Positions 10,154 through 64,000 of a stretch of 64,000 nucleotides of DNA are shown in pieces. Position 1 is the first letter of the stretch; every line of letters begins with the position of its first letter. The DNA is from Lytechinus pictus (lineage: Eukaryota), in the NCBI RefSeq assembly GCF_037042905.1, contig NC_087250.1, positions 15,316,001 through 15,380,000 of the forward strand. The letters run 5' to 3'. The translations under genes and the position numbers were made by a program. Below the pieces are notes generated by a model. The model ran no database searches. It saw only the letters and a program-made list of their open reading frames with translations, and was not told the origin of the DNA.

Positions 10154-10167
10154 AACTTCCACTACTA

Positions 10168-10654: not shown

Positions 10655-11876
10655 CTAGAACTGCAATCGTTTCCGAACGATGTGCATGCATTGACGCGTC
10701 TGATTGAAAGGTCAAGTCCACCTCAGAAAAATAGTGATTTGAATCAATAGGGAAAAATCAGACAAGCACAATGCTGAAAATTTCATCAAAATCGGACGTA
10801 AAATAAAAAAGTTATGACATTTCAAAGTTTCGCTTATTTTTAACAAAATAGTTATATGAACGAGCCAGTTACATCCAAATGAGAGAGATGATGATGTCAC
10901 TCACTCAAAATGGCGCATGCACTGTCATGCATGAATGATTTTAGAAAATGAAATAAAAGGTACACAATAATGCATCATGGACAACATGTCTACCAAATCG
11001 GAATGAATTTGGATGAGGAGCGGAGGCAGGGGAGGACTAAAAAAAATTACACGTTAATCGGATTTTGGTACATTTTGCCCTCCATAAGAAGTTACATTCT
11101 CGAGTCAAACAGATTTCGTCCATTTTTAGACCATATGGTCGCTTAACGAAGAGAGAGAAGGGAGAGAAAGACACACAGAGAGTGATATGAATAAGCATAC
11201 AAATTTCCCTGACAGTTCATTAACGTAACTCAGTGTAAAGTACGTATCAAAACGATGTGCATGCATAATACGTTATGGCATATAGACATTGTATACAATT
11301 CTGTTATTGATAATGTGTGCATTATGAGTGGTATACCATGTGTTCAGATTGGCTTATCTTGAAATTTTCTGTTGTAAACTATGTCGTATTTGGTATCACT
11401 GGAAAGAGCATTTCCATGCGGTGACATTGATACCCCTTTTTGTGTGCGCAAGCAATAGACCGGAAGTAAATGCCATATAAAGAAAGACATTAAAAATGAC
11501 AGTTTTTCACAATAATTTTAAGCTGACGTCAGCTCTACGTCAGTTTCTGTCACAAAAGGTTGACGAACGACTAAAGTATATATCAATACTCATATCTGCC
11601 AAGTTAGTAAGGATAAGATTCAATAATAAGGAAATAAGAGCAAGTTGAAGTTGTGCTGGCATTATAGTGCAATTTTGCTTATTTTGCTGATTTTCGGGAG
11701 CATTTTTCAGATATTTCGTCAGTGGTAAGGTATATATTTTTCTAAATGGCATGAAAGGGCATATCTTGAACACCCTAAATCTTAAAAAAGGTACGGGTTT
11801 GGCCATGCATGACGCAATGAGGAGCATTCAAAGATAAGCGTTTTTGAAACTTTAGAGGGCGCTATTTCAATACCGG

Positions 11877-11906
11877 CAAGGCCCTATATAAACATATAGG
11901 GCCTTG
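11877..11906. mobile_element. 30-bp palindromic insertion with 13-bp TIRs and an 8-bp TSD
   Basis: AATACCGG|CAAGGCCCTATAT-AAAC-ATATAGGGCCTTG|AATACCGG. The empty site TTCAATACCGGAAGG is seen in other units (for example near 27125 and 36032). Confidence 0.9.
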
Positions 11907-14250
11907 AATACCGGAAGGTCAATGATGCGTGAAAACTGACTCGTATGTATGATATGTTGCCAGTATTGATTCCTGAAAATTTGAGCTCGAATTGAATAAA
12001 AACTAGAAAGTTATGGCCATTTTACGATTTTTTGACTTTACATTTCAATAAATATGAAGTTTTTGAAGGAAGGCTATTTCAGATTGGAATTTAGGGCATG
12101 TAGATGGCATTTTGAAGGTCAGGTTATACGTCGCAGATGATGGAGCAACTCTTTGACTATCTATAGCAATTTGTTAGAAGTCTGTAGCATGCAGGATGCG
12201 GGAGTTAGGACGAGATTAGTAATGGTATGCAAATGGACTTGAAATTTACAAAATGGCGCCTTGATGGTCATGCATGAGTGATTTTGGAAAATGGAAGACG
12301 AGGTGCACAACTAGGGATGCTGGACAACATGTCTACAAAGTTTGGATGAATTTGGATGAGGGACGGAGCCAGGGTAGAGCTAACAAAAACCATGTGTTAA
12401 ACAAATGGGATTTGGTGGAAGAAGAAGAAGAAGAAGACGACGGACTAGAACTGCAATCGTTTCATTACGATGTGCATGCATTGACGTGTCTGATTGAAAG
12501 GTCAAGTCCACCTCAGAAAAATGTTGATTTGAATCAATAGGAAAAAATCAGACAAGCACAATGCTGAAAATTTCATCAAAATCGGATGTAAAATAAGAAA
12601 GTTATGACATTTCAAAGTTTCGCTTATTTTTAACAAAAGAGTTATATGAACGAGCCAGTTACATCCAAATGAGAGAGATGATGATGTCACTCACTCAAAA
12701 TGGTGCATGCACTGTCATGCATGAATGATTTTAGAAAATGAAATAAGAGATACGCAATAATGCATCATGGACAACATGTCTACCAAATCGGAATGAATTT
12801 GGATGAGGAGCGGAGGCAGGGGAGGACTAACAAAAATTACACGTTAATCAAAGTGGATTTTGGTACATTTTGCCCTCCATAGGAAGTTACATTCTCGAGT
12901 CAAACAGATTTCGTCCATTTTTAGACCAAATGGCCGCTCAACAAAGAGAGAGAAGGGAGAGAAAGACACAGAGAGAGTGATATGAATAAGCATACACATT
13001 TCCCGGACAGTTCATTAACGTAACTCAGTGTAAAGTACATAGCAGAACGATGTGCATGCATAATACGTTATGCCATAGACATTGTGTACAATGCTTTCGT
13101 TGATAATGTGTGCATTGTGAGTAGTATACCATGTGTTCAGATTGGCTTATCTTGAAATTTTCTGTTGTAACCTATGTCGTATTTGGTATCACTGGATAGG
13201 GCATTCCAATGCGGTGACATTGATACCACTCTTTTTTGTGCGCAAGCAATAGACCGGAAGTAAATGCCATATAAAGAAAGACATTAAAAATGACAGTTTT
13301 GCACAATAATTTTGAGCTGACGTCAGCTCTATGTCAGTTTCTGTCACAAAAGGTTAACGAACGGTTGAAATATATATCAATACTCATATCTGCCAAGTTA
13401 GAAAGGATAAACTTCAATAATAAGGAAATAAGAGCAAGTTGAAGTTGTGCTGGCATTATAGTGCATTTTTGCGTATTTTGCTGATTTTCGGGAGCATTTT
13501 TCAGATATTTCGTCAGTGGTAAGGTATATTTTTTTCTAAATGGCATGAAAGGGTATATCTTGAACACCCTAAATCTAAAAAAGGGTACGGGTTTGGCCAT
13601 GCATGACGCAATGAGGAGCATTCAAAGATAAGCGTTTTTGAAACTTTAGAGGGCGCTATTTCAGTAACGGAAATTTAGTGATGCGTGAAAAATGATTCCT
13701 ATGTATGATATGGTACCAGTATCAATTCCTGAAAATATGAGCTCAAAATGAATAAAAACAAGAAAGTTATGGCCATTTTACGATTTTTTGACTTTACATT
13801 TCAATAAATATGACGTTTTTGAAGGAAGGCTATTTCGGATTTGAATTTAGGGCATGAAGATGGCATTTTGAAGGTCAGGTTATACGTCGCAAATGATGGG
13901 GCAACTCTTTGACTATCTATAGCAATTTGTTAGAAGTCTGTAGAATGCAGGATGCGGGAGTTAGGACGAGATTAGTAATGGTATGCAAATGGACTTGAAA
14001 TTTACAAAATGGCGCCTAGATGGTCATGCATGAGTGATTTTGAAAAAAGGAAGACAAGGGGCACATCTAGGGATGCTGGACAACATGTCTACCAAGTTTG
14101 GATGAATTTGGATGAGGGACGGAGCCAGGGCAGAGCTAACAAACACCATGTGTTAAACAAATGGGATTTTGTGGAAGAAGAAGAAGAAGAAGAAGACTAG
14201 AACTGCAATCGTTTCATTACGATGTGCATGCATTGACGTGTCTGATTTAA

Positions 14251-14448
14251 AGGTCAAGTCCACCTCATAAAAATGTTGATTTGAATCAATAGGGAAAAAT
14301 CAGACAAGCAAAATGCTGAAAATTTCATCAAAATCGGATGTAAAAAAAGAAAGTTATGACATTTCAAAGTTTCGCTTATTTTTAACAAAAGAGTTATATG
14401 AACGAACCAGTTACATCCAAATGAGAGAGATGATAATGTCACTCACTC
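14251..14448 (+). mobile_element. Captured ~200-bp end of a TTAA-type (Kolobok-like) non-autonomous transposon; present in every unit, shown here for unit 3
   Basis: TTAA|AGGTCAAGTCCACC...AAATTTCATCAAAATCGGATGTAAAA...TCACTCACTC. TTAA is intact in units 3, 15 and 23. The family is recognised from memory of sea-urchin repeats and no partner TIR is present. Confidence 0.55.
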
Positions 14449-15568
14449 AAAATGGTGCATGAAATGTCATGCATGAATGATTTTAGAAAATGAAATAAGA
14501 GATACACAATAATGCATCATGGACAACATGTCTACCAAATCGGAATGAATTTGGATGAGGAGCGGAGGCAGGGGAGGACTAACAAAAATTACATGTTAAT
14601 CAAAGTGGATTTTGGTACATTTTGCCCTCCATAGGAAGTTACATTCTCGAGTCAAACAGATTTCGTCCATTTTTAGACCATATGGCTGCTCAACAAAGAG
14701 AGAGAAGGGAGAAAAAGACACAGAGAGTGATATGAATAAGCATACAAATTTCCCTGACACTTCATTAACGTAACTCAGTGTAAAGTACATAGCAGAACGA
14801 TGTGCATGCATAATACGTTATGCCATAGACATTGTGTACAATTCTGTTGTTGATAATGTGTGCAATGTGAGTAGTATACCATGTGTTCAGATTGGCTTAT
14901 CTTGAAATTTTCTGTTGTAACCTATGTCGTATTTGGTATCACTGGATAGAGCATTCCAATGCGGTGACATTGATACCACTTTTATTTGTGCGCAAGCAAT
15001 AGACCGGAAGTAAATGCCATATAAAGAAAGACATTAAAAATGACAGTTTTGCACAATAATTGTAACCTGACGTCAGCTCTATGTCAGTTTTTGTCACAAA
15101 AGGTTGACGAACGGTTAAAGTATATATCAATACTCATATCTGCCAAGTTAGAAAGAATAAGCTTCAATAATAAGGAAATAAGAGCAAGTTGAAGTTGTGC
15201 TGGCATTATAGTGCATTTTTGCGTATTTTGCTGATTTTCGGGAGCATTTTTCAGATATTTCGTCAGCAGTAAGGTATATATTTTTCTAAATGGCATGAAA
15301 GGGCATATCTTGAACACCCTAAATTTAAAAAAGGGTACGGGTTTGGCCATGCATGACGCAATGAGGAGCATTCAAAGGTAAGCGTTTTTCAGACTTTAGA
15401 GGGCGCTATTTCAATAACGGAAGGTCAATGATGCGTGAAAACTTACTAATATGTATGATATGGTACCAATATCAATTCCTTAAAATATGAGTTTGAAATT
15501 CATAAAAACAAGAAAGTTATGGCCATTTTACGATTTCTTGACTTTACATTTCAATAAATATGAAGTTT

Positions 15569-15621
15569 TTGTCTCACCTGCATAGCAGAGTGAGACTATA
15601 GGCGCCGCTTTTCCGACGGCG

Positions 15622-15664
<43 letters not shown>

Positions 15665-16558
15665 CGGCGGCGTCAACACCAAATCTTAACCTGAGGTTAA
15701 GTTTTTGAAATGACAGCATAACTTAGAAAGTATATGGACCTAGTTCATGAAACTTGGCCATAAGGTTAATCAAGTATTACTGAACATCCTGCCTGAGTTT
15801 CATGTCACATGACCAAGGTCAAAGGTCATTTAGGGTCAATGAACTTAGACCATGTTGGGGGAATCAACATCAAAATCTTAACCTAAGGTTAAGTTTTTGA
15901 AATGTCATCATAACTTAGAAAATATATGGACCTAGTTCATGAAACTTATACATAAGGTTAATCAAGTATCACTGAACATCCTGCATGAGTTTCACGTCAC
16001 ATGACCAAGGTCAAAGGTCATTTAGGGTCAATGAACTTTGGCCGAATTGGGGGTATCTGTTGAATTACCATCATAACTTTGCAAGTTTATGGATCTGATT
16101 CATGAAACTTGGACATAATAGTAATCAAGTATTACTGAACATCCTGTGCAAGTTTCAGGTCACATGATCAAGGTCAAAGGTCATTTAGGGTCAATGAACT
16201 TTGGCCAAATTGGGGGTATTTGTTGAATTACAGCCATAAATTTGAAAGTGTGTTGGTCTAGTTCATAAAACTTGGACATAATAGTAATCAAGTATCACTG
16301 AACATCCTGTGCGAGTTTCAGGTCACATGATCAAGGTCAAAGGTCATGTAAGGTCAAAGAACTTTGGCCACGTTGGGGGTATTTGTTAAATTGCCATCAT
16401 ATCTCTATAAGTGTATTGGTCTAGTTCATAAAACGTGGAAATAAGAGTAACCAAGTATCACTGAACATCTTGTGCGAGTTATAGTAGTTTTCAAAATCAG
16501 CACTGCTGCTATATTGAATCGCGTGATGCAGGTGAGACGGCCAGAGGCATTCCACTTG
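15569..16558 (+). mobile_element. 990-bp HINE/DINE-1-like element of a second family, inserted in unit 3
   Basis: TT, then subterminal IR GTCTCACCTGCAT (15571-15583) with local IR GTGAGAC (15590-15596), (GGC)n, 163-192 bp core tandem repeats, ATGCAGGTGAGAC (16526-16538), GCCagaGGC hairpin and CTTG end. It interrupts the host GAAGTTTTTGAAGG. Confidence 0.9.
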
Positions 16559-18734: not shown

Positions 18735-20559
18735 CTAGAACTGCAATCGTTTCAGAACGATGTGCATGCATTGACGCGTCTGATTGAAAGGTCAAGTCTA
18801 CCTCAGAAAAATGTTGATTTGAATCAATAGGGAAAAATCAGACAAGCGCAATGCTGAAAATTTCATCAAAATCGGATGTAAAATAAGAAAGTTATGACAT
18901 TTCAAAGTTTCGCTTATTTTTAACAAAAGATTTATATGAACGAGCCAGTTAAATGAGAGAGATGATGATGTCACTCACTCAAAATGGCGCATGCACTGTC
19001 ATGCATGAATGATTTTACAAAATGAAATAAGAGGTACACAATAATGCATCATGGACAACATGTCTACCAAATCGGAATGAATTTAGATGAGGAGAGGAGG
19101 CAGGGAGGACTAACAAAAATTACATGTTAATCAAAGTGGATTTTGGTACATTGTACCCTCCAGAGGAAGTTACATTCTCGAGTCAAACAGATTTCGTCCA
19201 TTTTTAGACCATATGGCCGCTCAACAAAGAAAGAGAAGGGAGAAAAAGACACAGAGAGAGTGATATGAATAAGCATATAAATTTCCCTGACAGTTCATAA
19301 ACGTAACTCAGTGTAAAGTACGTAGCAGAACGATGTGCATGCATAATACGTTATGCCATAGACATTGTGTACAATTCTGTTGTTGATATTTTGTGCATTG
19401 TGAGTAGTATACCATGTGTTCAGATTGGCTTATCTTGAAATTTTCTGTTGTAACCTATGTCGTATTTGGTATCACTTGATAGGGCATTCCAATGCGGTGA
19501 CATTGATACCACTTTTATTTTTGCGCAAGCACTAGACCGGAAGTAAATGCCATATAAAGAAAGACATTAAAAATGACAGTTTTGCACAATAATTTTGAGA
19601 TGACGTCAGCTCTATGTCAGTTTCTGTCACAAAAGGTTAACGAACGGTTGAAGTATATATCAATACTCATATCTGCCAAGTTAGAAAGGATAAACTTCAA
19701 TAATAAGGAAATAAGAGCAAGTTCAAGTTGTGCTGGCATCATAGTGCATTTTTGCGTATTTTGCTGATTTTCGGGAGCATTTTTCAGATATTTCGTCTGT
19801 GGTAAGGTATATTTTTTTCTAAATGGCATGAAAGGGCATATCTTGAACACCCTAAATCTAAAAAAGGGTACGGGTTTGGCCATGCATGACGCAATGAAGA
19901 GCATTCAAAGATAAGCGTTTTTGAAACTTAAGAGGGCGCTATTTCAATACCGGAAGATCAATGATGCGTGAAAAGTATGTCGTAAGTATGATATGTTGTC
20001 AGTATCAATTCCTGAATATATGAGCTCGAATTGAATAAAAACAAGAAAGTTATGGCCATTTTACGATTTTTTGACTTTACATTTCAATAAATATGACGTT
20101 TTTGAAGGAAGGCTATTTCGGATTTGAATTTAGGGCATGAAGATGGCATTTTGAAGGTCAGGTTATACGTCGCAAATGATGGGGCAACTCTTTGACTATC
20201 TATAGCAATTTGTTAGAAGTCTGTAGAATGCAGGATGCGGGAGTTAGGACGAGATTAGTAATGGTATGCAAATGGACTTGAAATTTACAAAATGGCGCCT
20301 AGATGGTCATGCATGAGTGATTTTGAAAAAAGGAAGACAAGGGGCACAACTAGGGATGCTGGACAACATGTCTACCAAGTTTGGATGAATTTGGATGAGG
20401 GACGGAGCCAGGGCAGAGCTAACAAACACCATGTGTTAAACAAATGGGATTTTGTGGAAGAAGAAGAAGAAGAAGAAGAAGAAGAAGAAGAAGAAGAAGA
20501 CGACGGAATAGGAATACGGAACAAGAACAATGCATTGTCGCCGTTGGGCGTCAATGCAA
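18735..20559 (-). mobile_element. Representative full-length unit with both termini (1825 bp)
   Basis: Minus-strand order: TTGCATTGACGC (5' subterminal IR, also pairing with the nearby GCGACAATGCA), (TTC)n, body, GCGTCAATGCA (3' subterminal IR, 11 bp perfect), hairpin TGCAcATCGTT-loop-AACGATTGCA, then GTTCTAG. Confidence 0.85.
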
Positions 20560-23500
20560 AGAAGAAGAAGAAGAAGAAGACGACGGAATAGGAATACGGA
20601 ACAAGAACAATGCATTGTCGCCGTTGGGCGTCAATGCAAAGACGACGGAATAGGAATACGGAACAAGAACAATGCATTGTCGCCATTGGGCGTCAATGCA
20701 ACTAGAACTGCAATCGTTTCCGAACGATGTGCATGCATTGACGCGTCTGATTGAAAGGTCAAGTCCACCTCAGAAAAATCTTGATTGGAATCAATAGGGA
20801 AAAATCTGAAAAGCACAATGCTGAAAATTTCATCAAAATCGGATGTAAAATAAGAAAGTTATGACATTTCAAAGTTTCGCTTATTTTTAACAAAAGAGTT
20901 ATATGAACGAGCCAGTTACATCCAAATGAGAGAGATGATGATGTCACTCACTCAAAATGGTGCATGCACTGTCATGCATGAATGATCAAAATCGGATTTA
21001 AAATAAGAAAGTTATGACATTTCAAAGTTTCGCTTATTTCTAACAAAATAGTATTAATTATGAACGAGCCAGTTACATGCAAATGAGAGAGATGATGATG
21101 TCACTCACTCAAAATGGTGCATGCACTGTCATGCATGAATGATTTTAGAAAATGAAATAAGAGGTACACAATAATGCATCATGGACAACATGTCTACCAA
21201 ATCGGAATGATATGGATAAGCATACACATTTCCCTGACAGTTCATTAACGTAATTCAGTGTAAAGTACATAGCAGAACGATGTGCATGCATAATACGTTA
21301 TGCCATAGACATTGTGTACAATTCTGTTGTTGATAATGTGTGCATTCTGAGTAGTATACCATGTGTTCAGATTGGCTTATCTTGAAATTTTCTGTTGTAA
21401 CCTATGTCATATTTGGTATCACTGGAAAGAACATTCAAATGCGGTGACATTGATACCCCTTTTATTTGTGCTCAAGCAATAGACCGGAAGTAAATGCCAT
21501 ATAAAGAAAAACATTAAAAATGAAGGTTTTGCACAAAAATTTTAAGCTGACGTCAGATTTTTGTCAGTTTCTGTTACAAAAGGTTGACGAACGGTTGAAG
21601 TATATATCAATACTCATATCTGCCAAGTTAGAAAGGATAAGCTTCAATAATAAGGAAATAAGAGCAAGTTGAAGTTGTGCTGGCATTATAGTGCATTTTT
21701 GCGTATTTTGCTGATTTTCGGGAGCATTTTTCAGATATTTTGTCAGCGGTAAGGTATATATTTTTCTAAATGGCATGAAAGAGCATATCTTGAACACCCT
21801 AAATCTAAAAAAGGGTACGGGTTTGGCCATGCATGACGAAATGAGGAGCATTCAAAGATAAGCGTTTTTGAAACTTTAGAGGGCGCTATTTCAGTAACGG
21901 AAATTCAGTGATGCGTGAAAACTAAGTCGTAAGTATGATATGGTACCAGTATCAATTCCTGAAAATATGAGCTCGAAATGAATAAAAACAATAAAGTTAT
22001 GGCCATTTTACGATTTTTTGACTTTACATTTCAATAAATGTGACGTTTTTGAAGGAAGGCTATTTCGGATTTGAATTTAGGGCATGAAGATGGCATTTTG
22101 AAGGTCAGGTTACACGTCGCAGATGATGGAGCAACTCTTTGACTATCTATAGCAATTTGTAAGAAGTCTGTAGAATGCAGGATGCGGGAGTTAGGACGAG
22201 ATTAGAAATGGTATGCAAATGGACTTGAAATTTACAAAATGGCGCCTTGATGGTCATGCATGAGTGATTTTGGAAAATGGAAGACGAGGTGCACAACTAG
22301 GGATGCTGGACAACATGTCTACAAAGTTTGGATGAATTTGGATGAGGGACGGAGCCAGGGTAGAGCTAACAAAAACCATGTGTTAAACAAATGGGATTTG
22401 GTGGAAGAAGAAGAAGAAGAAGACGACGGACTAGAACTGCAATCGTTTCATTACGATGTGCATGCATTGACGTGTCTGATTGAAAGGTCAAGTCCACCTC
22501 AGAAAAATGTTGATTTGAATCAATAGGAAAAAATCAGACAAGCACAATGCTGAAAATTTCATCAAAATCGGATGTAAAATAAGAAAGTTATGACATTTCA
22601 AAGTTTCGCTTATTTTTAACAAAAGAGTTATATGAACGAGCCAGTTACATCCAAATGAGAGAGATGATGATGTCACTCACTCAAAATGGTGCATGCACTG
22701 TCATGCATGAATGATTTTAGAAAATGAAATAAGAGATACGCAATAATGCATCATGGACAACATGTCTACCAAATCGGAATGAATTTGGATGAGGAGCGGA
22801 GGCAGGGGAGGACTAACAAAAATTACACGTTAATCAAAGTGGATTTTGGTACATTTTGCCCTCCATAGGAAGTTACATTCTCGAGTCAAACAGATTTCGT
22901 CCATTTTTAGACCAAATGGCCGCTCAACAAAGAGAGAGAAGGGAGAGAAAGACACAGAGAGAGTGATATGAATAAGCATACACATTTCCCGGACAGTTCA
23001 TTAACGTAACTCAGTGTAAAGTACATAGCAGAACGATGTGCATGCATAATACGTTATGCCATAGACATTGTGTACAATGCTTTCGTTGATAATGTGTGCA
23101 TTGTGAGTAGTATACCATGTGTTCAGATTGGCTTATCTTGAAATTTTCTGTTGTAACCTATGTCGTATTTGGTATCACTGGATAGGGCATTCCAATGCGG
23201 TGACATTGATACCACTCTTTTTTGTGCGCAAGCAATAGACCGGAAGTAAATGCCATATAAAGAAAGACATTAAAAATGACAGTTTTGCACAATAATTTTG
23301 AGCTGACGTCAGCTCTATGTCAGTTTCTGTCACAAAAGGTTAACGAACGGTTGAAATATATATCAATACTCATATCTGCCAAGTTAGAAAGGATAAACTT
23401 CAATAATAAGGAAATAAGAGCAAGTTGAAGTTGTGCTGGCATTATAGTGCATTTTTGCGTATTTTGCTGATTTTCGGGAGCATTTTTCAGATATTTCGTC

Positions 23501-53500: not shown

Positions 53501-56500
53501 GATGAATTTGGATGAGGGACGGAGCCAGGGTAGAGCTAACAAAAACCATGTGTTAAACAAATGGGATTTTGTGGAAGAAGCAGAAGAAGAAGAAGACGAC
53601 GGAATAGGAATACGGAACAAGAACAATGCATTGTCGCCATTGGGCGTCAATGCAAAGAAGAAGAAGAAGAAGAAGACGACGGAATAGGAATACGGAACAA
53701 GAACAATGCATTGTCGCCGTTGGGCGTCAATGCAAAGACGACGGAATAGGAATACGGAACAAGAACAATGCATTGTCGCCATTGGGCGTCAATGCAACTA
53801 GAACTGCAATCGTTTCATTACGATGTGCATGCATTGACGTGTCTGATTTAGAGGTCAAGTCCACCTCATAAAAATGTTGATTTGAATCAATAGGGAAAAA
53901 TCAGACAAGCACAATGCTGAAAATTTCATCAAAATCGGATGTAAAATAAGAAAGTTATGACATTTCAAAGTTTCGCTTATTTTTAACAAAAGAGTTATAT
54001 GAACGAGCCAGTTACATCCAAATGAGAGAGATGATGATGTCACTCACTCAAAATGGTGCATGCACTGTCATGCATGAATGATTTTAGAAAATGAAATAAG
54101 AGGTACACAATAATGCATCATGGACAACATGTCTACCAAATCGGAATGAATTTGGATGAGGAGCGGAGGCAGGGGAGGACTAACAAAAATTACATGTTAA
54201 TCAAAGTGGATTTTGGTACATTTTGCCCTCCATAGGAAGTTACATTCTCGAGTCAAACAGATTTCGTCCATTTTTTGACCATGGCCGCTCAACAAAGAGA
54301 GAGAAGGGAGAGAAAGACACAGAGAGAGTGATATGAATAAGCATACAAATATCCCTGACAGTTCATAAACGTAACTCAGTGTAAAGTACATAGCAGAACG
54401 ATGTGCATGCATAATACGTTATGCCATAGACATTATGTACAATTTTATTGTTGATAATATGTGCATTGTGAGCAGTATACCATGTGTTCAGATTGGCTTA
54501 TCTTGAAATTTTCTGTTGTAACCTATGTCGTATTTGGTATCACTGGATAGGGCATTCCAATGCAGTGACATTGATACCACTTTTATTTTTGCGCAAGCAA
54601 TAGACCGGAAGTAAATGCCAAATAAAGAAATACATTAAAAATGACAGTTTTGCACAATAATTTTGAGCTGACGTCAGCTCTATGTCAGTTTCTGTCACAA
54701 AAGGTTAACGAACGGTTGAAGTATATATCAATACTCATATCTGCCAAGTTAGAAAGGATAAACTTCAATAATAAGGAAATAAGAGCAAGTTCAAGTTGTG
54801 CTGGCATTATAGTGCATTTTTTCGTATTTTGCTGATTTTCAGGAGCATTTTTCTGATATTTTGTCAGTGGTAAGGTATATATTTTTCTAAATGGCATGAA
54901 AGGGCATATCTTGAACACCCTAAATCTAAAAAAGGGTACGGGTTTGGCCATGCATGGCGCAATGAGGAGCATTCAAAGGTAAGCGTTTTTGAAACTTTAG
55001 AGGGCGCTATTTAGATACCGAAAGAGCAATGATGCGTGAAAACTAACTCGTATGTATGATATGTTGCGAGTATCAATTCCTGAAAGTATGAGCTCAAAAC
55101 AAATAAAAACAAGAAAGTTATGGCCATTTTACGATTTTTTGACTTTTCATTTCAATAAAAATGAAGTTTTTGAAGGAAGGCTATTTCGGATTTGAATTAA
55201 GGGCATGAAGCTGGCATTTTGAAGGTCAGGTTATACGTCGCAAATGATGGGGCAACTCTTTGACTATCTATAGCAATTTGTTAGAAGTCTGTAGAATGCA
55301 GGATGTGGGAGTTAGGACGAGATTAGTAATGGTATGCAAATGGACTTGAAATTTACAAAATGGCGCCTAGATGGTCATGCATGAGTGATTTTGAAAAAAG
55401 GAAGACAAGGGACACAACTAGGGATGCTGGACAACATGTCTACCAAGTTTGGATGAATTTGGATGAGGGACGGAGCCAGGGCAGAGCTAACAAACACCAT
55501 GTGTTAAACAAATGGGATTTTGTGGAAGAAGAAGAAGAAGAAGAAGAAGAAGAAGAAGAAGACGACGGAATAGGAATACGGAACAAGAACAATGCATTGT
55601 CGCCAGTGGGCGTCAATGCAAAGAAGACGACGGAATAGGAATACGGAACAAGAACAATGCATTGTCGCCATTGGGCGTCAATGCAACTAGAACTGCAATC
55701 GTTTCATTACGATGTGCATGCATTGACGCGTCTGATTGAAAGGTCAAGTCCACCTCAGAAAAATGTTGATTTGAATCAATAGGGAAAAATCAGACAAGCA
55801 CAATGCTGAAAATTTCATCAAAATCGGATGTAAAATAAGAAAGTTATGACATTTCAAAGTTTCGCTTATTTTTAACAAAAGAGTTATATGAACGAGCCAG
55901 TTACTTCCAAATGAGAGAGATGATGATGTCACTCACTCAAAATGGTGCATGCACTGTCATGCATGAATGATTTTAGAAAATGAAATAAGAGGTACACAAT
56001 AATGCATCATGCACAACATGTCTACCAAATCGGAATGAATTTGGATGAGGAGCGGAGGCAGGGGAGGACTAACAAAAATTACATGTTAATCAAAGTGGAT
56101 TTTGGTACATTTTGCCCTCCATAGGAAGTTACATTCTCGAGTCAAACAGATTTCGTCCATTTTTAGACCATATGGCCGCTCAACGAAGAGAGAGAAAGGA
56201 GAGAAAGACACAGAGAGAGTGATATGAATAAGCGTACAAATTTCCCTGACAGTTCATTAACGTAACTCAGTGTAAAGTACGGACCAGAACGATGTGCATG
56301 CATAATACGTTATGCCATAGACATTGTGTACAATTCTGTTATTGATAATGTATGCATCGTGAGTAGTATACCATGTGTTCAGATTGGCTTATCTTGAAAT
56401 TTTCTGTTGTAACCTATGTCGTATTTGGTATCACTGGATAGAGCATTCCCATGCGGTGACATTGGTACCACTTTTATTTGTGCGCAAGCAATAGACCGGA

Positions 56501-59500
56501 AGTAAATGCCATATAAAGAAAGACATTAAAAATGACAGTTTTGCACAATAATTTTAAGCTGACGTCAGCTCTATGTCAGTTTCTGTCACAAAAGGTTGAC
56601 GAACGGTTGAAGTATATATCAATACTCATTTCTGCCAAGTTAGAAAGGATAAGCTTTAATAATAAGGAAATAAGAGCAAATTGAAGTTATGCTGGCATTA
56701 TAGTGCATTTTTGCGTATTTTGCTGATTTTCGGGAGCATTTTTCAGATATTTCGTCAGCTGTAAGGTATATATTTTTCTAAATGGCATGAAAGGGCATAT
56801 CTTGAACACCCTAAATCTAAAAAAGGGTACGGGTTTGGCCATGCATGACGCAATGAGGAGCATTCAAAGATAAGCGTTTTTGAAACTTTAGAGGGCGCTA
56901 TTTCAATACCGGAAGGTCAATGATGCGTGAAAACTAAATCGTATGTATGATATGGTGCAAGTATAAATTCTTGAAAATATGAGCTCGAAATGAATAAAAA
57001 CAAGAAAGTTATGGCCATTTTACGATTATTTGACTTTACGTTTCAATAAATATGAAGTTTTTGAAGGAAGGCTATTTCGGATTTGAATTTAGGGCATGAA
57101 GATGGCATTTTGAAGGTCGGGTTATACGTCGCAAATGATGGGGCAACTCTTTGACTATCTATAGCAATTTGTTAGAAGTCTGTAGAATGCAGGATGCGGG
57201 AGTTAGGACGAGATTAGTAATGGTATGCAAATGGACTTGAAATTTACAAAATGGCGCCTAGATGGTCATGCATGAGTGATTTTGATAAAAAGAAGACGAG
57301 GGGCACAACTAGGGATGCTGGACAACATGTCTACCAAGTTTGGATGAATTTGGATGAGGGACGGAGCCAGGGCAGAGCTAACAAACACCATGTGTTAAAC
57401 AAATGGGATTTTGTGGAAGAAGAAGAAGAAGAAGACTAGAACTGCAATCGTTTCAGAACGATGTGCATGCATTGACGCGTCTGATTGAAAGGTCAAATCC
57501 ACCTCTGAAAAATGTTGATTTGAATCAATAGGGAAAAATCAGACAAGCACAATGCTAAAAATTTCATCAAAATCGGATGTAAAATAAGAAAGTTATTACA
57601 TTTCAAAGTTTCGCTTATTTTTAACAAAATAGTTATATGAACGAGCCACTTACATCCAAATGAGAGAGATGATGATGTCACTCACTCAAAATGGTGCATG
57701 CACTGTCATGCATGAATGATTTAAGAAAATGAAATAAGAGGTACACAATAATGCATCATGGACAACATGTCTACCAAATCGGAATGAATTTGGATGAGGA
57801 GCGGAGGCAGGGGAGGACTAACAAAAATTACATGTTAATCAAAGTGCATTTTGGTACATTTTGCCCTCCATAGGAAGTTACATTCTCGAGCTAAACAGAT
57901 TTCGTCCATTTTTAGACCATATGGCCGCTCAACGAAGAGAGAGAAAGGAGAGAAAGACACAGAGAGAGTGATATGAATAAGCGTACAAATTTCCCTGACA
58001 GTTCATTAACGTAACTCAGTGTAAAGTACGTACCAGAACGATGTGCATGCATAATACGTTATGCCATAGACATTGTGTACAATTCTGTTATTGATAATGT
58101 ATGCATCGTGAGTAGTATACCAGTGTTCAGATTGGCTTATCTTGAAATTTTCTGTTGTAACCTATGTCGTATTTGGTATCACTGGAAAGAGCTTTCCCAT
58201 GCGGTGACATTGGTACCACTTTTATTTGTGCACAAGCAATAGACCGGAAGTAAATGCCATATAAAGAAAGACATTAAAAATGACAGTTTTGCACAATAAT
58301 TTTAAGCTGACGTCAGCTCTTTGTCAGTTTCTGTCACAAAAGGTTGACGAACGGTTGAAGTATATATCAATACTCATTTCTGCCAAGTTAGAAAGGATAA
58401 GCTTTAATAATAAGGAAATAAGAGCAAGTTGAAGTTATGCTGGCATTATAGTGCATTTTTGCGTATTTTGCTGATTTTCGGGAGCATTTTTCAGATATTT
58501 CGTCAGTGGTAAGGTATATATTTTTCTAAATGGCATGAAAGGGCATATCTTGAACACCCTAAATCTAAAAAAGGGTACGGGTTTGGCCATGCATGACGCA
58601 ATGAGGAGCATTCAAAGGTAAGCGTTTTTGAAACTTTAGAGGGCGCTATTTCAATACCGGAAGATCAATGATGCGTGAAAACTAACTCGTAAGTATGATA
58701 TGTTGCCTGTAATAATTCCTGAAAATATTAGTTCGAATTGAATAAAAACAAGAAAGTTATGGCCATTTTATGATTTTTTTACTTTACATTTCAATAAATA
58801 TGAAGTTTTTGAAGGAAGGCTATTTCGGATTTGAATTTAGGGCATGAAGATGGCATTTTGAAGGTCAGGTTATACGTCGCAAATGATGGAACAACTCTTT
58901 GACTATCTATAGGAATTTGTTAGAAGTTTGTAGCATGCAGGATGCGGGAGTTAGGACGAGATTAGTAATGGTATGCAAATGGACTTGAAATTTACAAAAT
59001 GGCGCCTTGATGGTCATGCATGAGTGATTTTGGAAAATGGAAGACGAGGTGCACAACTAGGGATGCTGGACAACATGTCTACAAAGTTTGGATGAATTTG
59101 GATGAGGGACGGAGCCAGGGTAGAGCTAACAAAAACCATGTGTTAAACAAATGGGATTTTGTGGAAGAAGCAGAAGAAGAAGAAGAAGACGACGGAATAG
59201 GAATACGGAACAAGAACAATGCATTGTCGCCATTGGGCGTCAATGCAAAGAAGAAGAAGAAGAAGAAGACGACGGAATAGGAATACGGAACAAGAACAAT
59301 GCATTGTCGCCGTTGGGCGTCAATGCAACTAGAACTGCAATCGTTTCCGAACGATGTGCATGCATTGACGCGTCTGATTGAAAGGTCAAGTCCACCTCAG
59401 AAAAATCTTGATTGGAATCAATAGGGAAAAAATCAGACAAGCACAATGCTGAAAATTTCATCAAAATCGGATGTAAAATAAGAAAGTTATGACATTTCAA

Positions 59501-62500
59501 AGTTTCGCTTATTTTTAACAAAAGAGTTATATGAACGAGCCAGTTACATCCAAATGAGAGAGATGATGATGTCACTCTCAAAATGGCGCATGCAATATCA
59601 TGCATGAATGATTTTACAAAATGAAATAAGAGGTACACAATAATGCATCATGGACAACATGTCTACCAAATCGGAATGAATTTGGATGAGGAGAGGAGGC
59701 AGGGAGGACTAACAAAAATTACATGTTAATCAAAGTGGATTTTGGTACATTGTACCCTCCAGAGGAAGTTACATTCTCGAGTCAAACAGATTTCGTCCAT
59801 TTTTAGACCATATGGCCGCTCAACAAAGAGAGAAAAGGGAGACAAAGACACAGAGAGAGTGTTATGAATAAGCATACAAATTTCCCTGACAGTCATTAAC
59901 GTAACTCAGTGTAAAGTACATAGCAGAACGATGTGCACGCATAATACGTTATGCCATTGACATTGTGTACAATTCTGTTGTTGATAATGTGTGCGTTGTG
60001 AGTAGTATACCATGTGTTCAGATTGGCTTATCTTGAAATTTTCTGTTGTAACCTATGTCGTATTTGGTATCACTGGAAAGAGCATTCCCATGCGGTGACA
60101 TTGATACCCCTTTTAATTGTGCGCAAGCAATAGATCGGAAGTAAATGCCATATAAAGAAAGACATTAAAAATGACAGTTTTGCACAATAATTTTAAACTG
60201 ACGTCAGATTTTTGTCACTTTCTGTCACAAAAGGTTAACGAACGGTTAAAGTATATATCAATACTCATATCTGCCAAGTTAGAAAGGATAAGCTTTAATA
60301 ATAAGGAAATAAGAGCTAGTTGAAGTTGTGCTGGCATTATAGTGCATTTTTGCGTATTTTGCTGATATTCGGGAGCATTTTTCAGATATTTCGTCAGTTG
60401 TAAGGTATATATTTTTCTAAATGGCATAAAAGGGCATATCTTGAACACCCTAAATCTAAAAAAGGGTACGGGTTTGGCCATGCATGACGCAATGAGGAGC
60501 ATTCAAAGGTAAGTGTTTTTGAAACTTTAGAGGGCGCTATTTCAATAACAGAAAATCAATGATGCGTATAAACTATACCGTGTGTATGATATGGTACCAG
60601 TTTCAATTCCTGAGAATATAGGCTCAAAATGAATAAAAACAAGAAAGTTATGGCTATTTTACGATTTTTTGACTTTACATTTCAATAAATATGACGTTTT
60701 TGAAGGAAGGCTATTTCGGATTTGAATTTAGAGCATGAAGATGGCATTTTGAAGGTCAGGTTATTTGTCGCAGATGATGAAGCAATTCTTTGACTATCTA
60801 TAGCAATTTGTTAGAAGTTTGTAGCATGCAGGATGCGGGAGTTAGGATGAGATTAGTAATGGTATGCAAATGGACTTGAAATTTACAAAATGGCGCCTTG
60901 ATGGTCATGCATGAATGATTTTGGAAAATGGAAGACGAGGTGCACAACTAGGGATGCTGGACAACATGTCTACAAAGTTTGGATGAATTTGGTTGTGGGA
61001 CTGAGCCAGGGTAGAGCTAACAAAAACCATGTGTTAAACAAATGGGATTTTGTGGAAGAAGAAGAAGAAGAAGACTAGAACTGCAATCGTTTCAGAACGA
61101 TGTGCATGCATTGACGCGTCTGATTGAAAGGTCAACTCCACCTCAGAAAAATGTTGATTTGAATCAATAGGGAAAAATCAGACAAGCACAATGCTGAAAA
61201 TTTCATCAAAATCGGATGTAAAATAAGAAAGTTATGACATTTCAAAGTTTCGCTTATTTTAAACAAAATAGTTATATGAACGAGCCAGTTACATCCAAAT
61301 GAGAGTGATGATGATGTCACTCACTCAAAATGGCGCATGCACTGTCATGTATGAATGATTTTAGAAAATGAAATAAGAGGTACACACTAATGCATCATCG
61401 ACAACATATCTGCCAAATGAATTTGGATGAGGAGCGGAGGCAGGGGAGGAATTAAAAAAAATTACATGTTAATAAAAGTGGATTTAGGACATTATGCCCT
61501 CCATAGGAAGTTGCATTCTCGAGTCAAACAGATTTCGTCCATTTTTTTACCATGGTCGCTCAACAAAGAGAGAGAAGGGAGAGAAAGACACAGAGAGAGT
61601 GATATGAATAAGCATACAAATATCCCTGACAGTTCATAAACGTAACTCAGTGTAAAGTACATAGCAGAACGATGTGCATGCATAATACGTTATGCCATAG
61701 ACATTGTGTACAATTTTATTGTTGATAATATGTGCATTGTGAGCAGTATACCATGTGTTCAGATTGGCTTATCTTGAAATTTTCTGTTGTAACCTATGTC
61801 GTATTTGGTATCGGTGGAAAGAGCATTCCAATGCGGTGACATTGATACCACTTTTATTTGTGCGCAGGCAATAGACCGGAAGTAAATGCCATATAAAGAA
61901 AGACATTAAAAATGACAGTTTTTCACAATAATTTTAAGCTGACGTGAGCTCTATGTCAGTTTCTGTCACAAAAGGTTGACGAACGGTTAAAGTATATATC
62001 AATACGCATATCTGCCAAGTAAGAAAGGATAAGCATCAATAATAAGGAAATAAGAGCAAGTTCAAGTTGTGCTGGCATTATAGTGCATTTTTGCGTATTT
62101 TGCTGATTTTCGGGAGCATTTTTCAGATATTTGGTCAGTAGTAAGGTATATATTTTTCTAAATGGCATGAAAGGGCATATCTTTAACACCCTAAATCTAA
62201 AAAAGGGTACGGGTTTGGCCATGCATGACGCAATGAGGAGCATTCAAACGTAAGCGTTTTTGAAACTTTAGAGGGCGCTATTTCAATACCGGAAGGTCAA
62301 TGATGCGTGAAAACTAACTCGTAAGTATGATATGTTGCCTGTAATAAGTCCTGAAAATATTAGATCGAATTGAATAAAAACAAGAAAGTTATGGCCATTT
62401 TAGGATTTTTTGACTTTACATTTCAATAAATATGAAATTTTTGAAGGAAGGCTATTTCGGATTTGAATTTAGGGCATGAAGATGGCATTTTGAAGGTCAG

Positions 62501-64000
62501 GTTATACGTCGCAAATGATGGAGCAACTCTTTGACTATCTATAGGAATTTGTTAGAAGTTTGTAGCATGCAGGATGCGGGAGTTAGGACGAGATAAGTAA
62601 TGGTATGCAAATGGACTTGAAATTTACAAAATGGCACCTTGATGGTCATGCATGAGTGATTTTGGAAAATGGAAGACGAGGTGCACAACTAGGGATGCTG
62701 GACAACATGTCTACAAAGTTTGGATTAATTTGGATGAGGGACGGAGCCAGGGTAGAGCTAACAAAAACCATGTGTTAAACAAATGGGATTTTGTGGAAGA
62801 AGCAGAAGAAGAAGACTAGAACTGCAATCGTTTCAGAACGATGTGCATGCATTGACGCGTCTGATTGAAAGGTCAACTCCACCTCAGAAAAATGTTGATT
62901 TGAATCAATAGGGAAAATTCAGACAAGCGCAATGCTGAAAATTTCATCAAAATCGGATTTAAAATAAGAAAGTTATGACATTTCAAAGTTTCGCTTATTT
63001 CTAACAAAATAGTTTTAATTATGAACGAGCCAGTTACATGCAAATGAGAGAGATGATGATGTCACTCACTCAAAATGGTGCATGCACTGTCATGCATGAA
63101 TGATTTTAGAAAATGAAATAAGAGGTACACAATAATGCATCATGGACAACATGTCTACCAAATCGGAATGATATGGATAAGCATACACATTTCCCTGACA
63201 GTTCATTAACGTAACTCAGTGTAAAGTACATAGCAGAACGATGTGCATGCATAATACGTTATGCCATAGACATTGTGTACAATTCTGTTGTTGATAATGT
63301 GTGCATTCTGAGTAGTATAACATGTGTTCAGATTGGCTTATCTTGAAATTTTCTGTTGTAACCTATGTCATATTTGGTATCACTGGAAAGAGCATTCAAA
63401 TGCGGTGACATTGATACCCCTTTTATTTGTGCTCAAGCAATAGACCGGAAGTAAATGCCATATAAAGAAAAACATTAAAAATGAAGGTTTTGCACAATAA
63501 TTTTAAGCTGACGTCAGATTTTTGTCAGTTTCTGTCACAAAAGGTTAACGAACGGTTGAAGTATATATCAATACTCATATCTGCCAAGTTAGAAAGGATA
63601 AACTTCAATAATAAGGAAATAAGAGCAAGTTCAAGTTGTGCTGGCATTATAGTGCATTTTTGCGTATTTTGCTGATTTTCGGGAGCATTTTTCAGATATT
63701 TCGTCAGAGGTAAGGTATATTTTTTTCTAAATGGCATGAAAGGGCATATCTTGAACACCCTAAATCTAAAAAAGGGTACGGGTTTGGCCATGCATGACGC
63801 AATGAGGAGCATTCAAAGATAAGCGTTTTTGAAACTTTAGAGGGCGCTATTTCAGTAACGGAAATTCAGTGATGCATGAAAACTGAGTCCTATGTATGAT
63901 ATTGTACCAGTATCAATTCCTGCAAATATGAGCTCAAAATGAATAAAAACAAGAAAGTTATGGCAATTTTACGATTTTTTTACTTTACATTTCAATAAAT

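What the first reader, a model, noticed from the sequence alone, without database searches (positions are those of the whole stretch)
10655..64000. Possible self-targeting nested array: a rolling-circle element that inserts into its own microsatellite
Seen: taking the element as CTAG...TGCAA on the + strand, the 29 junctions fall into four classes. 17 are (GAA)nGA|CTAG, where the unit is cut inside its microsatellite. 2 are GACGACGGA|CTAG, cut at the AA of GGAATAGG. 7 are TGCAA|CTAG and 3 are TGCAA-AGA|CTAG. The ~61-bp terminal module occurs 21 times in stacks of 1-3, and each surplus module is preceded by a leftover A(GAA)n with n = 0, 1 or 6. Counting CTAG as an open bracket and each module as a close bracket, the depth never goes negative and is 9 at the window end. 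Established: Helentrons insert at TT without a TSD. Inference: every junction is compatible with an A|A (T|T) target. The element would thus carry its own landing pad and build a macrosatellite by nesting, later reshuffled by duplication. Caveat: the leftover lengths recur (n = 6 at 20560, ~53656 and ~59248), so few junctions are independent events.
Basis: partly seen in the sequence, partly recalled or inferred. Interest (0 to 1): 0.85.

Follow-up and report, generated by a model that had tools for sequence, protein, structure and literature searches.

The report
Self-nesting rolling-circle transposon array
A 56-kb repeat block is built from 31 copies of a small rolling-circle (Helentron-like) transposon that keep landing in or beside the starting end of copies already there, which shows one way that mobile DNA can build a large satellite-like array by nesting instead of local copying.

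Summary
The window holds 30 heads, 21 terminal modules and junction classes of 17/2/7/3. I read past the window. The array ends 2.4 kb later with three full modules, then the predicted remnant TGCAA|ATAGGAATACGG, then purine-rich flank.

Nesting by self-insertion is the best explanation.
- The array's first unit ends in the missing half of that remnant.
- Two small arrays with unique flanks are perfectly balanced: H H M M and H H M H M M.
- Genome-wide, left junctions (163) equal right junctions (160).
- The 31 units mix with copies from other chromosomes as freely as random labels would (19 label changes on the tree against 19.1 in shuffles). Neighbouring units are unrelated.

- The element's own strand is the minus strand (5'-TTGCA…CTAG-3').
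- The hot spot is the region of the 5' terminal module, not the microsatellite alone.
- "Depth never negative" is not beyond chance (P = 0.26).
- Most units are independent insertions, not later duplications.
- No Rep/helicase partner with these ends was found.

Small-scale self-insertion of Helitron2-type elements is already in print (PMC5148889). I rate this a new variant of a known kind.

The parts
10160..10654 (+). Purine-rich (GAA/GGA) compound microsatellite, the primary target of the outermost element. The same kind of sequence resumes right after the array end, 2393 bp beyond the window.
   Evidence: Sequence read (left flank; right flank 'ataaggaggaggatgaagaatgagg').
10655..64000 (-). 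The part of the nested array that lies in the window. It holds 30 of the 31 units (1373-2740 bp, mostly about 1750), all in one orientation. The whole array is 55,739 bp and ends at G000:C6:15382393.
10655..10714 (-). Example of the sense-strand 3' end (RTS). It has the subterminal inverted repeat GCGTCAATGCA, then a hairpin with a 4-bp outer stem (TGCA), a 1-nt bulge and an inner stem ATCGTT/AACGAT around a 4-nt loop. It ends in GTTCTAG-3'.
   Evidence: fold; hairpin ends 7 nt from the terminus; 30 copies; the variation is in the loop.
20641..20701 (-). Example of the terminal module, which is the sense-strand 5' end (LTS): 5'-TTGCATTGACGCC CAAT GGCGACAATGCA…CCGTCGTC. It folds into an 11-bp hairpin, and its first arm is the inverted repeat of the 3' subterminal GCGTCAATGCA.
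   Evidence: -12.2 kcal/mol, z = -4.05.
10655..12444 (-). Outermost element, left part. It ends in (GAA)6 GACGACGGA, the first 9 nt of a module. The other 51 nt (ATAGG…TGCA) form the last feature of the array, at window-equivalent 66338-66393.
20457..20498 (+). Example of an intact (GAA)14 tract between body and module. On the sense strand this is (TTC)n just 3' of the LTS.
   Evidence: intact tracts are 12-45 nt in 32 units.
20499..20700 (-). Stack of 3 modules separated by A(GAA)6 and A.
27650..27771 (-). Stack of 2 modules.
29528..29714 (-). Stack of 3 modules.
34753..34812 (-). Single module followed by AGA|CTAG.
36572..36631 (-). Single module (3 mismatches) followed by AGA|CTAG.
41515..41639 (-). 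Stack of 2 modules.
43387..43511 (-). Stack of 2 modules.
53595..53796 (-). Stack of 3 modules.
55561..55685 (-). Stack of 2 modules.
59188..59327 (-). Stack of 2 modules.
22207..24201 (+). A 1995-bp tract identical to 12221-14215. It is not bounded by element ends, so it is a gene conversion or duplication, and it copies the GACGACGGA|CTAG junction.

Best explanation
The repeat is a 1.8-kb non-autonomous rolling-circle transposon of the Helentron / Helitron2 kind. Its own strand is the window's minus strand: 5'-TTGCATTGACGCC… (a 60-nt hairpin module, the LTS), then (TTC)n, a 1.7-kb body, GCGTCAATGCA, a short hairpin, and GTTCTAG-3' (the RTS).

The 55.7-kb array was built mainly by repeated insertion of family members from around the genome. 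They landed in one orientation, in or beside the 5' terminal region of copies already present. Most landed at T|TC in the (TTC)n tract next to the LTS. Some landed inside the LTS and some exactly at its outer edge. Each such hit pushes the resident copy's LTS to the far side of the newcomer. The result is runs of module-less units on one side and stacks of orphan modules on the other, like brackets.

Shown: the anatomy, the complementary split halves, the balanced small nests, the equal genome-wide junction counts, the independent ancestry of the units, and the bias towards GAA tracts.

Inferred:
- A Helentron-type HUH Rep/helicase does the integration.
- The resident LTS, the single-strand-prone GAA·TTC tract, or both attract the integration.
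- The imbalances (H H M, H M M, and 31 heads against 27 modules here) come from two processes: transposition of composites out of nests (starting at an inner or outer LTS and stopping at the first or a later RTS) and recombination between direct copies.
- Occasional gene conversion made the four near-identical unit pairs.
For: 1. Right end of the array. After the window come 2 modules, 1 more unit, 3 full modules, the remnant TGCAA|ATAGGAATACGG…TGCA, and then purine-rich flank. The first unit ends in GACGACGGA|, which is exactly the missing 9 nt. The first and last features of the array together make one element that encloses everything else.

2. Small arrays with unique flanks on both sides are balanced bracket words.
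- C3:16.76 Mb reads H (GAA)6GA|H…M|A(GAA)4 M (the left tract is 20 nt).
- C14:9.61 Mb reads H H M H M M.
- In C14b the split is in the rare phase (GAA|CTAG). That phase occurs 3 times genome-wide. The only leftover in the matching rare phase genome-wide (TGCAA|GAAGAAGAAG, 1 hit) lies in that same array.

3. Conservation law. Genome-wide there are 163 left junctions AAGA|CTAG (56+/107-) and 160 right junctions TGCAA|AGA (53+/107-). Exact-pattern counts give 315 heads and 284 modules.

4. Independent origin of the units.
- Mean divergence is 5.74% within the window, 5.52% between the window and 26 units from 17 other loci, and 5.26% among those others.
- 10 of 31 window units have their nearest relative elsewhere, for example u19 and a solo on another contig at 0.4%.
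- On the ML tree the label window/elsewhere needs 19 changes, against 19.1 ± 2.0 in 1000 shuffles. Starred branches alone force at least 9 changes.
- Adjacent units are no more alike than non-adjacent ones (5.98% against 5.73%).
- The right-hand neighbours of closely related units are unrelated in 31 of 32 pairs.
- The module-less state is not clustered on the tree (16 changes against 17.2 ± 1.8).

5. All 29 internal junctions fall within about 95 bp of a 1.8-kb unit: in the tract, in the module or at the module's end. Exact-pattern counts put 163 AAGA|CTAG, 62 TGCAA|CTAG and 3 GACGACGGA|CTAG junctions among the 315 heads, so about 70% of heads abut another copy.

6. Target preference at 18 primary sites. 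A precedes CTAG in 18 of 18, and 4 of 18 lie in GAA-rich tracts against 1.5% of background (P = 1.4e-4).

7. The composite forms predicted by excision from a nest exist at loci with unique flanks: H M A(GAA)4 M (L039), H M plus a partial module (L038), and H H M (two loci). The model of Chellapan et al. 2016 for Helitron2-like elements (PMC5148889, passages read) derives the forms with two 5' ends from self-insertion.

8. The anatomy matches the published Helentron/HINE description (PMC4067079, passages read; fold).
Against: - The array is not balanced. It has 31 heads against 26 full modules plus 1 remnant, so final depth is 4. Other arrays read from listed coordinates are 10/9, 14/16, 30/26 and 10/8. 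Extra processes must be invoked to explain this.
- Two dimers with unique flanks lack the outer module.
- The rare split GACGACGGA|CTAG and its remnant pair up in only 1 of 3 arrays that carry either. C2:63.18 Mb has the left half only and C4:25.67 Mb has the remnant only, by exact patterns.
- Left-hand tract pieces are oddly uniform. They are 20 nt in 12 of the 23 measured and never under 18 nt, while intact tracts range from 12 to 45 nt. Split-left and intact lengths do not differ significantly (P = 0.17). This fits a fixed hot spot, but it would also fit an inherited junction.
- Module-bearing units have longer terminal branches than module-less ones on the tree. That is not what a simple 'inner is younger' rule predicts.
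- 'Depth never negative' is not significant.
- No autonomous element with these termini was found, so the enzyme is inferred.
- No empty-site allele or read-level proof of any single insertion was obtained.
Confidence: 0.72

Rival explanations
1. Clustered truncated insertions without true nesting. On the sense strand, module-less units would be 5'-truncated copies, and orphan modules would be aborted copies that hold only the 5' end. Both would pile up next to resident ends because of target preference.
For: - Arrays are imbalanced, and H H M and H M M forms exist.
- The left tract is uniformly about 20 nt.
- Arrays of truncated Helitrons with many 5' ends are in print (Xiong et al. 2016, as summarised in PMC12628747, passages read).
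Against: - This model gives no reason for 163 left junctions to equal 160 right junctions.
- It gives no reason for the split module halves to be complementary at the two ends of the array.
- It gives no reason for the rare-phase halves to co-occur in C14b.
- It gives no reason for the perfectly balanced small arrays.
- At three heads that have no exact module nearby, the stretch where a module would lie held no element sequence, so they could not be scored for a solo of the form head-body-(GAA)6GA|unique flank.
Confidence: 0.12
2. Local amplification. One or a few founder copies were multiplied in place, by unequal crossing-over or by rolling-circle replication of a circle that had lost the module. 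The junction classes were then derived by slippage or deletion at the shared AAGAC microhomology.
For: - AAGAC is shared by GAAGAC|GACGG and TGCAAAGAC|TAG, so a module could be deleted that way (sequence).
- There are four near-identical unit pairs.
- A 4066-bp higher-order period occurs in the C2:63.16 Mb array (coordinates).
- Head-to-tail Helitron arrays are known (PMC5876387, passage read).
Against: - Units are as diverse as the whole family and are interleaved with copies from other contigs.
- Adjacent units are not more alike than distant ones.
- There is no multi-unit duplication in this array.
- Pairs flanking TGCAA|CTAG differ by 4.1-11.4%.
- Stacks of modules and the remnant are not produced by deletion.
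Confidence: 0.05
3. Integration of circles by homologous recombination. This applies to the TGCAA|CTAG class only. Element circles with a precise RTS-LTS joint would recombine with a resident copy and give tandem, chimeric units. Nesting would still explain the rest.
For: - Precise RTS-to-LTS circle junctions are documented for Helraiser (PMC5876387). Joined ends are documented for FoHeli1 (PMC5148889).
- Head-loop variants do not follow the body tree, which hints at chimeric units.
- There are 62 such junctions genome-wide.
Against: - It cannot make module stacks, split modules or module-less units.
- Insertion at the outer edge of the LTS explains the same junction without a second mechanism.
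- Chimerism was not tested formally.
Confidence: 0.08
4. Assembly artefact. The array structure would come from mis-joined long reads in a repeat.
For: - Two stretches of 1995 bp are identical.
- No read-level confirmation was obtained.
Against: - The same grammar recurs in at least nine other arrays on several contigs, including small ones with unique flanks.
- Units differ by about 5.7% on average, which is enough for unambiguous long-read assembly.
Confidence: 0.02

Closest known systems
Self-insertion and composite Helitron2-like elements of Fusarium (FoHeli), and a three-copy tandem in Metarhizium acridum (Chellapan et al. 2016, PMC5148889; passages read)
   Same: - The elements are of the Helitron2/Helentron type, with asymmetric terminal inverted repeats.
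- Short duplicated 5' termini sit with a single 3' terminus. These are explained by one copy inserting near the 5' end of another, followed by excision from the outer 5' end to the first 3' end.
[quoted passage not shown]
   Different: - The published cases are isolated, with 2-3 copies, and the mechanism is offered as a possibility.
- Here about 70% of some 315 copies abut another copy and arrays reach 31 units.
- The insertion hot spot is a microsatellite beside the LTS.
- Independent origin of the units and complementarity of the halves were tested here.
Helentron-associated interspersed elements (HINE / DINE-1) (Thomas et al. 2014, PMC4067079; passages read)
   Same: - The element is non-autonomous.
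- A subterminal inverted repeat lies close to the 5' end and about 40 nt from the 3' end, with a short 3' palindrome.
- An internal microsatellite is present.
- The target is T-rich (TT) with no target-site duplication.
   Different: - The termini here are 5'-TT…CTAG-3', as in the 'proto-Helentron' of Phytophthora described in that paper. With that boundary most primary targets are A|T.
- In the passages read, that paper uses 'nested' only for an inverted repeat within the 5' subTIR, and its only mention of tandem arrays concerns repeats inside elements.
- No autonomous partner was linked here.
Rolling-circle amplified arrays of truncated Helitrons in plant centromeres (Xiong, Dooner & Du 2016; known here only through the summary in PMC12628747, and a mention in PMC5148889)
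   Same: Tandem arrays are made of Helitron parts, with unequal numbers of 5' and 3' ends.
   Different: - That model predicts arrays of sister copies from one circle, with many 5' ends and a single 3' end.
- Here the units are unrelated lineages, and orphan 5' ends are matched by units that lack 5' ends.
Helitron-like elements of Lepidoptera that disrupt (GAAA)n microsatellites (Coates et al. 2010; title seen in the reference list of PMC4067079; paper not read)
   Same: A rolling-circle-type element is associated with purine-rich microsatellite targets.
   Different: Whether those elements carry the target themselves or nest is not known to me.
Transposon dimers formed by insertion-site preference as seeds of satellites (McGurk & Barbash, as summarised in PMC12628747; original paper not read)
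   Same: Repeated insertion of one family at the same site produces tandem junctions that can seed a satellite.
   Different: - In that model the dimers are then amplified by recombination.
- Here growth to 31 units appears to come mostly from further insertions, and the structure is nested, not simply tandem.

Membership tests
Helentron / Helitron2-type (HLE2) non-autonomous element (HINE) | Subterminal inverted repeats: one a few nt from the 5' terminus, its partner about 38-60 bp from the 3' terminus (PMC4067079) | tested here: met
   On the minus strand, TGCATTGACGC starts at nt 2 of the element. GCGTCAATGCA starts 43 nt and ends 32 nt from the 3' end (sequence). The repeat is 11 nt, against the published 12-15.
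Helentron / Helitron2-type (HLE2) non-autonomous element (HINE) | Short palindrome 8-35 bp from the 3' terminus, and a palindrome at or near the 5' subTIR | tested here: met
   The 3' hairpin ends 7 nt from the terminus, and its inner 6-bp stem ends 11 nt from it. The 5' hairpin has 11 bp and z = -4.05.
Helentron / Helitron2-type (HLE2) non-autonomous element (HINE) | Insertion within TT (T-rich target) | tested here: inconclusive
   The sense-strand 3' flank is T in 18 of 18 sites. The 5' flank is T in 18 of 18 if the element starts at TGCA. The nested junctions, however, require the start TTGCA, and then the primary sites are A|T in 13, T|T in 5, and one nest is C|T.
Helentron / Helitron2-type (HLE2) non-autonomous element (HINE) | No target-site duplication | tested here: met
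   No direct repeat flanks any of the 18 primary sites.
Helentron / Helitron2-type (HLE2) non-autonomous element (HINE) | An autonomous partner (Rep + helicase + AP endonuclease) that shares the termini | tested here: inconclusive
   The genome holds intact Helentrons. One 3462-aa frame carries OTU, Helitron_like_N, PIF1 and Exo_endo_phos domains. None of this family's terminal motifs lie within 2.3-7.3 kb of that frame, nor within 4-4.5 kb of a second family's frame. For a third family, the copies on C1 and C2 have no exact head or module nearby in the listed rows. Only one copy per family was read.
Canonical Helitron (HLE1) | 5'-TC start | tested here: not met
   The sense 5' end is TTGCA (or TGCA) in all copies read.
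Canonical Helitron (HLE1) | 3'-CTRR end with a hairpin about 11 bp upstream, and insertion between A and T | tested here: met
   The 3' end is CTAG in 30 of 30 heads. The hairpin lies 7-11 nt upstream. The target is A|T at 13 of 18 primary sites if the 5' end is TTGCA. The same 5'TT…CTAG3' and A|T combination is described for a Phytophthora proto-Helentron (PMC4067079).
Nested / composite Helitrons by self-insertion (PMC5148889) | One copy lies inside another of the same family, with the split halves of the outer copy on either side | tested here: met
   See the window array ends, C3:16.76 Mb and C14:9.61 Mb.
Nested / composite Helitrons by self-insertion (PMC5148889) | Derived elements with two 5' termini and one 3' terminus at new loci | tested here: met
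   L039 reads H M A(GAA)4 M, and L038 reads H M plus a partial module. Both have unique flanks.
Rolling-circle amplified array of truncated Helitrons (Xiong 2016 model) | Units are sister copies from one template | tested here: not met
   Units are interleaved with copies from elsewhere (19 label changes against 19.1 in shuffles). Adjacent units differ by 6.0%.
Classical satellite grown by unequal crossing-over | Local homogenisation, with neighbouring units or higher-order blocks more alike than distant ones | tested here: not met
   Adjacent units differ by 5.98% and non-adjacent by 5.73% (P = 0.78). No offset shows a run of similar units. A 4066-bp period does occur in another array (C2:63.16 Mb).

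The most novel reading that the evidence does not exclude
The 5' end of a resident copy, together with its (TTC)n tract, acts as a homing site for a Helentron-type HUH transposase. New copies from anywhere in the genome are then drawn into existing copies. The family recursively builds its own 'safe-haven' macrosatellites, and the microsatellite is an evolved landing pad, not a passenger. Excision from different pairs of ends within a nest would continually spawn new composite elements.
Probability: 0.3. Interest if true: 0.8.

Novelty: new variant of a known kind. Interest (0 to 1): 0.6.

Why it matters
Helitron-derived satellites are usually explained by rolling-circle over-replication or by unequal crossing-over. 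This array offers a third, testable route: recursive homing of independent copies into the 5' end of resident copies. That route leaves a bracket-like structure with a simple conservation law, in which left junctions equal right junctions.

It would also give an animal example, on a large scale, of the self-insertion proposed for fungal Helitron2-like elements. It points to a target rule for Helentron-type transposases that could be tested: a T|TC step beside an LTS hairpin and a GAA·TTC tract.

For genome annotation, such blocks should be parsed as nests. Parsing them as tandem repeats mis-dates and mis-counts the insertions.

Tried and rejected
- **Bracket depth as evidence.** Permutation shows it is not significant.
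- **Pairing module SNPs with unit haplotypes by bracket matching.** The module variant (AT/GT/AG) has no phylogenetic signal (10 changes against 11.1 ± 0.9, P = 0.23), so the test has no power.
- **Tract length.** Left-hand pieces are not significantly shorter than intact tracts (medians 20 and 24 nt, P = 0.17).
- **Autonomous partner.** Two intact Helentron families were read around one copy each and no matching termini were seen.
- **Heads without an exact module nearby.** Five were sampled with 501-bp stretches. One is an old complete copy with a mutated module. One is in another register. Three show no element sequence at the expected place, so they are not informative about module-less solos.
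- **Public reads.** Only runs kept as short Logan contigs with small word shares were offered. When laid on the right end of the array, contigs break at the repeats and none bridges the remnant junction, so they neither confirm nor contradict it.
- **Earlier findings of this scan.** There were none for this genome, this sequence or these words.
- **Whole-genome file.** It was not available.
- One over-long pattern and one search term with an apostrophe were rejected as malformed.

Full report
**What is there.** The window lies at G000:C6:15316001-15380000 of an 812-Mb, 368-contig eukaryotic assembly. From 10655 to the window end it is filled with one 1.4-2.7-kb unit in a single orientation.
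- I found 30 exact heads (CTAGAACTGCAATCG).
- I found 21 copies of the 60-nt terminal module in ten stacks of 1-3. Leftovers between stacked modules are A(GAA)n with n = 0, 1 or 6.
- The description is therefore exact.
- The claim that bracket depth never goes negative carries little weight. It holds in 26% of permutations of the per-unit module counts.

**The unseen right end.** I fetched the 100 kb to the right of the window.
- The array goes on for 2.4 kb: two modules, one more unit, three full modules, and then TGCAA|ATAGGAATACGG…TGCA.
- After that the purine-rich sequence seen on the left flank (10160-10654) resumes.
- The remnant is the 51-nt distal part of a module. The proximal 9 nt, GACGACGGA, end the very first unit (12436-12444).
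- So the first and last features of the 55,739-bp array make one element that has been split, with everything else inside it.
- The second GACGACGGA|CTAG junction (22431) sits in a 1995-bp tract identical to the first and not bounded by element ends, so it is a conversion copy.
- Totals are 31 heads against 26 modules plus the remnant. The array is nearly balanced, but not fully.

**What the unit is.** On the minus strand the unit reads, in order:
- 5'-TTGCATTGACGCC-CAAT-GGCGACAATGCA, an 11-bp hairpin with z = -4.05;
- …CCGTCGTC-(TTC)n, then the body;
- GCGTCAATGCA, then a short hairpin, then GTTCTAG-3'.

The 5' arm is the inverted repeat of the 3' subterminal GCGTCAATGCA. This is the layout published for Helentrons and their non-autonomous HINE/DINE-1 partners: a subTIR a few nt from the 5' end and about 40 nt from the 3' end, a 3' palindrome, an internal microsatellite and a T-rich target. 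The ends TT…CTAG match the 'proto-Helentron' described in the same paper (PMC4067079, passages).

The element's own strand is therefore the minus strand. The 'terminal module' is its 5' end (LTS) and the 'head' is its 3' end (RTS).

The genome has intact Helentrons. One 3462-aa open frame carries OTU, Rep, PIF1 helicase and AP-endonuclease domains. I found none of this family's terminal motifs around one copy each of two coding families, so the partner is unknown.

**Copies elsewhere.** Exact patterns find 284 modules and 315 heads genome-wide, in many arrays and as solos. I read 12 solitary copies, 3 doublets and 2 small arrays.
- At 18 primary sites CTAG is always preceded by A. After TGCAA comes T in 13 and A in 5.
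- Four of the 18 sites lie in GAA-rich tracts, against 1.5% of A-preceded background positions (P = 1.4e-4).
- Two small arrays with unique flanks on both sides are perfect bracket words.
  - C3:16.76 Mb reads H-(GAA)6GA|H…M|A(GAA)4-M (the left tract is 20 nt).
  - C14:9.61 Mb reads H H M H M M.
- In the C14 array the tract is cut in the other phase (GAA|CTAG, 3 cases genome-wide). The only leftover in the matching phase in the whole genome lies in that same array.
- That nest is an A|G target, so 'every junction A|A' does not hold outside the window.

**Nesting against local amplification.**
- A nest adds one left junction and one right junction per event. Genome-wide I count 163 AAGA|CTAG and 160 TGCAA|AGA, with matching strand splits of 56/107 and 53/107.
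- The 31 units differ by 5.7% on average. That is no less than their distance to 26 units from 17 other loci (5.5%) or the distance among those (5.3%).
- Ten of the 31 units have their nearest relative on another contig.
- On a maximum-likelihood tree the label 'window' needs 19 changes, exactly what shuffled labels need (19.1 ± 2.0). Well-supported branches alone force at least 9.
- Adjacent units are no more alike than distant ones.
- Units flanking the precise TGCAA|CTAG joints differ by 4-11%.
- The right-hand neighbours of closely related units are unrelated in 31 of 32 pairs.
- The module-less state is scattered over the tree.
- Only four near-identical pairs exist, and none extends to neighbouring units.

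Most units are therefore separate arrivals, not local copies. It also argues against rolling-circle amplification of one template (the model of Xiong et al. 2016, known to me through PMC12628747) and against unequal crossing-over as the main builder.

**Where the arrivals land.**
- All 29 internal junctions lie within about 95 bp of the 1.8-kb unit: in the tract, in the module or at its end.
- Left-hand tract pieces are narrowly 18-32 nt, and 20 nt in 12 of the 23 measured. Leftovers range from n = 0 to 8 and are mostly 0 or 1.
- So the hot spot is the boundary between tract and module.
- About 70% of all heads abut another copy: 163 + 62 + 3 of 315. This slightly overcounts, because a few AAGA|CTAG joints are primary hits in genomic GAA tracts.
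- The 490-bp purine-rich flank next to this array has taken no further hit, while the short tracts inside the elements took many. I infer that the resident 5' end, not GAA alone, attracts insertions.

**The imbalances.** Forms with unique flanks exist that a nest should spawn if excision can start at either LTS and stop at either RTS: H M A(GAA)4 M and H M plus a partial module, and H H M at two loci with unrelated units. The forms with two 5' ends fit the composite model drawn for Fusarium Helitron2-like elements (PMC5148889, passages). Recombination between direct copies would give the same forms. I could not separate these two routes.

**What stays open.**
- The enzyme is unknown.
- It is unclear why the left-hand pieces are so uniform.
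- It is unclear why the rare split and its remnant pair up in only one of the three arrays that carry either.
- Module-bearing units have the longer terminal branches, which a simple 'inner is younger' rule does not predict.
- No allele without an inner unit has been seen.
- Public reads were no help.

**Verdict.** The finding is real and the nesting interpretation is well supported (0.72), with the corrections above. Self-insertion near the 5' end of Helitron2-type elements (PMC5148889), head-to-tail Helitron arrays (PMC5876387, passage) and Helitron-like elements in purine-rich microsatellites (title only) are all in print. My searches for Helentron or Helitron together with nested, tandem array, microsatellite, self-insertion or head-to-tail turned up no large nested arrays of this sort. 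I rate it a new variant of a known kind, with interest 0.6.

Noticed in passing
window 9439-10153 and 10160-10654: An (ACT)n microsatellite of about 238 copies runs directly into a ~490-bp GAA/GGA-rich tract. The array sits in a compound microsatellite region.
   Followed up: partly
window 16-415, 3567-4247, 4539-5603: Three unrelated tandem repeats (periods 11/22/33 bp, 145 bp and 128-130 bp) lie left of the array.
   Followed up: no
window 15673-16480; 20832-21143; 24313-24624: There are internal tandem duplications inside units. Periods of 192 and 163 bp make unit 3 2740 bp long. A 157-bp duplication occurs in units 6 and 8, which also form the most divergent branch of the tree.
   Followed up: no
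window 36636-38008 and 50474-51848; 29716-31242: There are short deletion variants of the unit: 1373 and 1375 bp (0.1% apart from each other) and 1527 bp.
   Followed up: no
window ~10775-10880 and L016 ~3100-3600 (right flank): A ~100-bp piece of the unit body ('…tttcatcaaaatcggatgtaaaataagaaagttatgacatttcaaagtttcgc…') recurs in both orientations in the unique flank 0.7-1.2 kb right of the array. The body shares a segment with another dispersed repeat.
   Followed up: no
G000:C11:24747294-24757679 (L048, L044, L049): An intact Helentron frame of 3462 aa carries OTU protease, DUF6570, Helitron_like_N, PIF1 helicase and a C-terminal Exo_endo_phos endonuclease. It also has a match to Herpes_teg_N (PF04843, E = 2e-10) in the N-terminal part.
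   Followed up: partly
G000 contigs C10 (41 kb-400 kb) and C12 (7.85-8.28 Mb): Clusters of five to six copies of one Helentron family with open frames of about 3250-3340 aa, spaced 30-180 kb apart.
   Followed up: no
G000:C2:63164657-63176855: In another array of the same family, a head-head-module block repeats four times with an exact 4066-bp period. This is a higher-order duplication of the kind that is absent from the window's array (coordinates).
   Followed up: no
G000:C5:8873151-8873408: A large (~55 kb) array on C5 ends on its module side with five consecutive TGCAA|AGA joints, which implies a stack of at least five or six modules. This is the deepest terminal stack seen.
   Followed up: no
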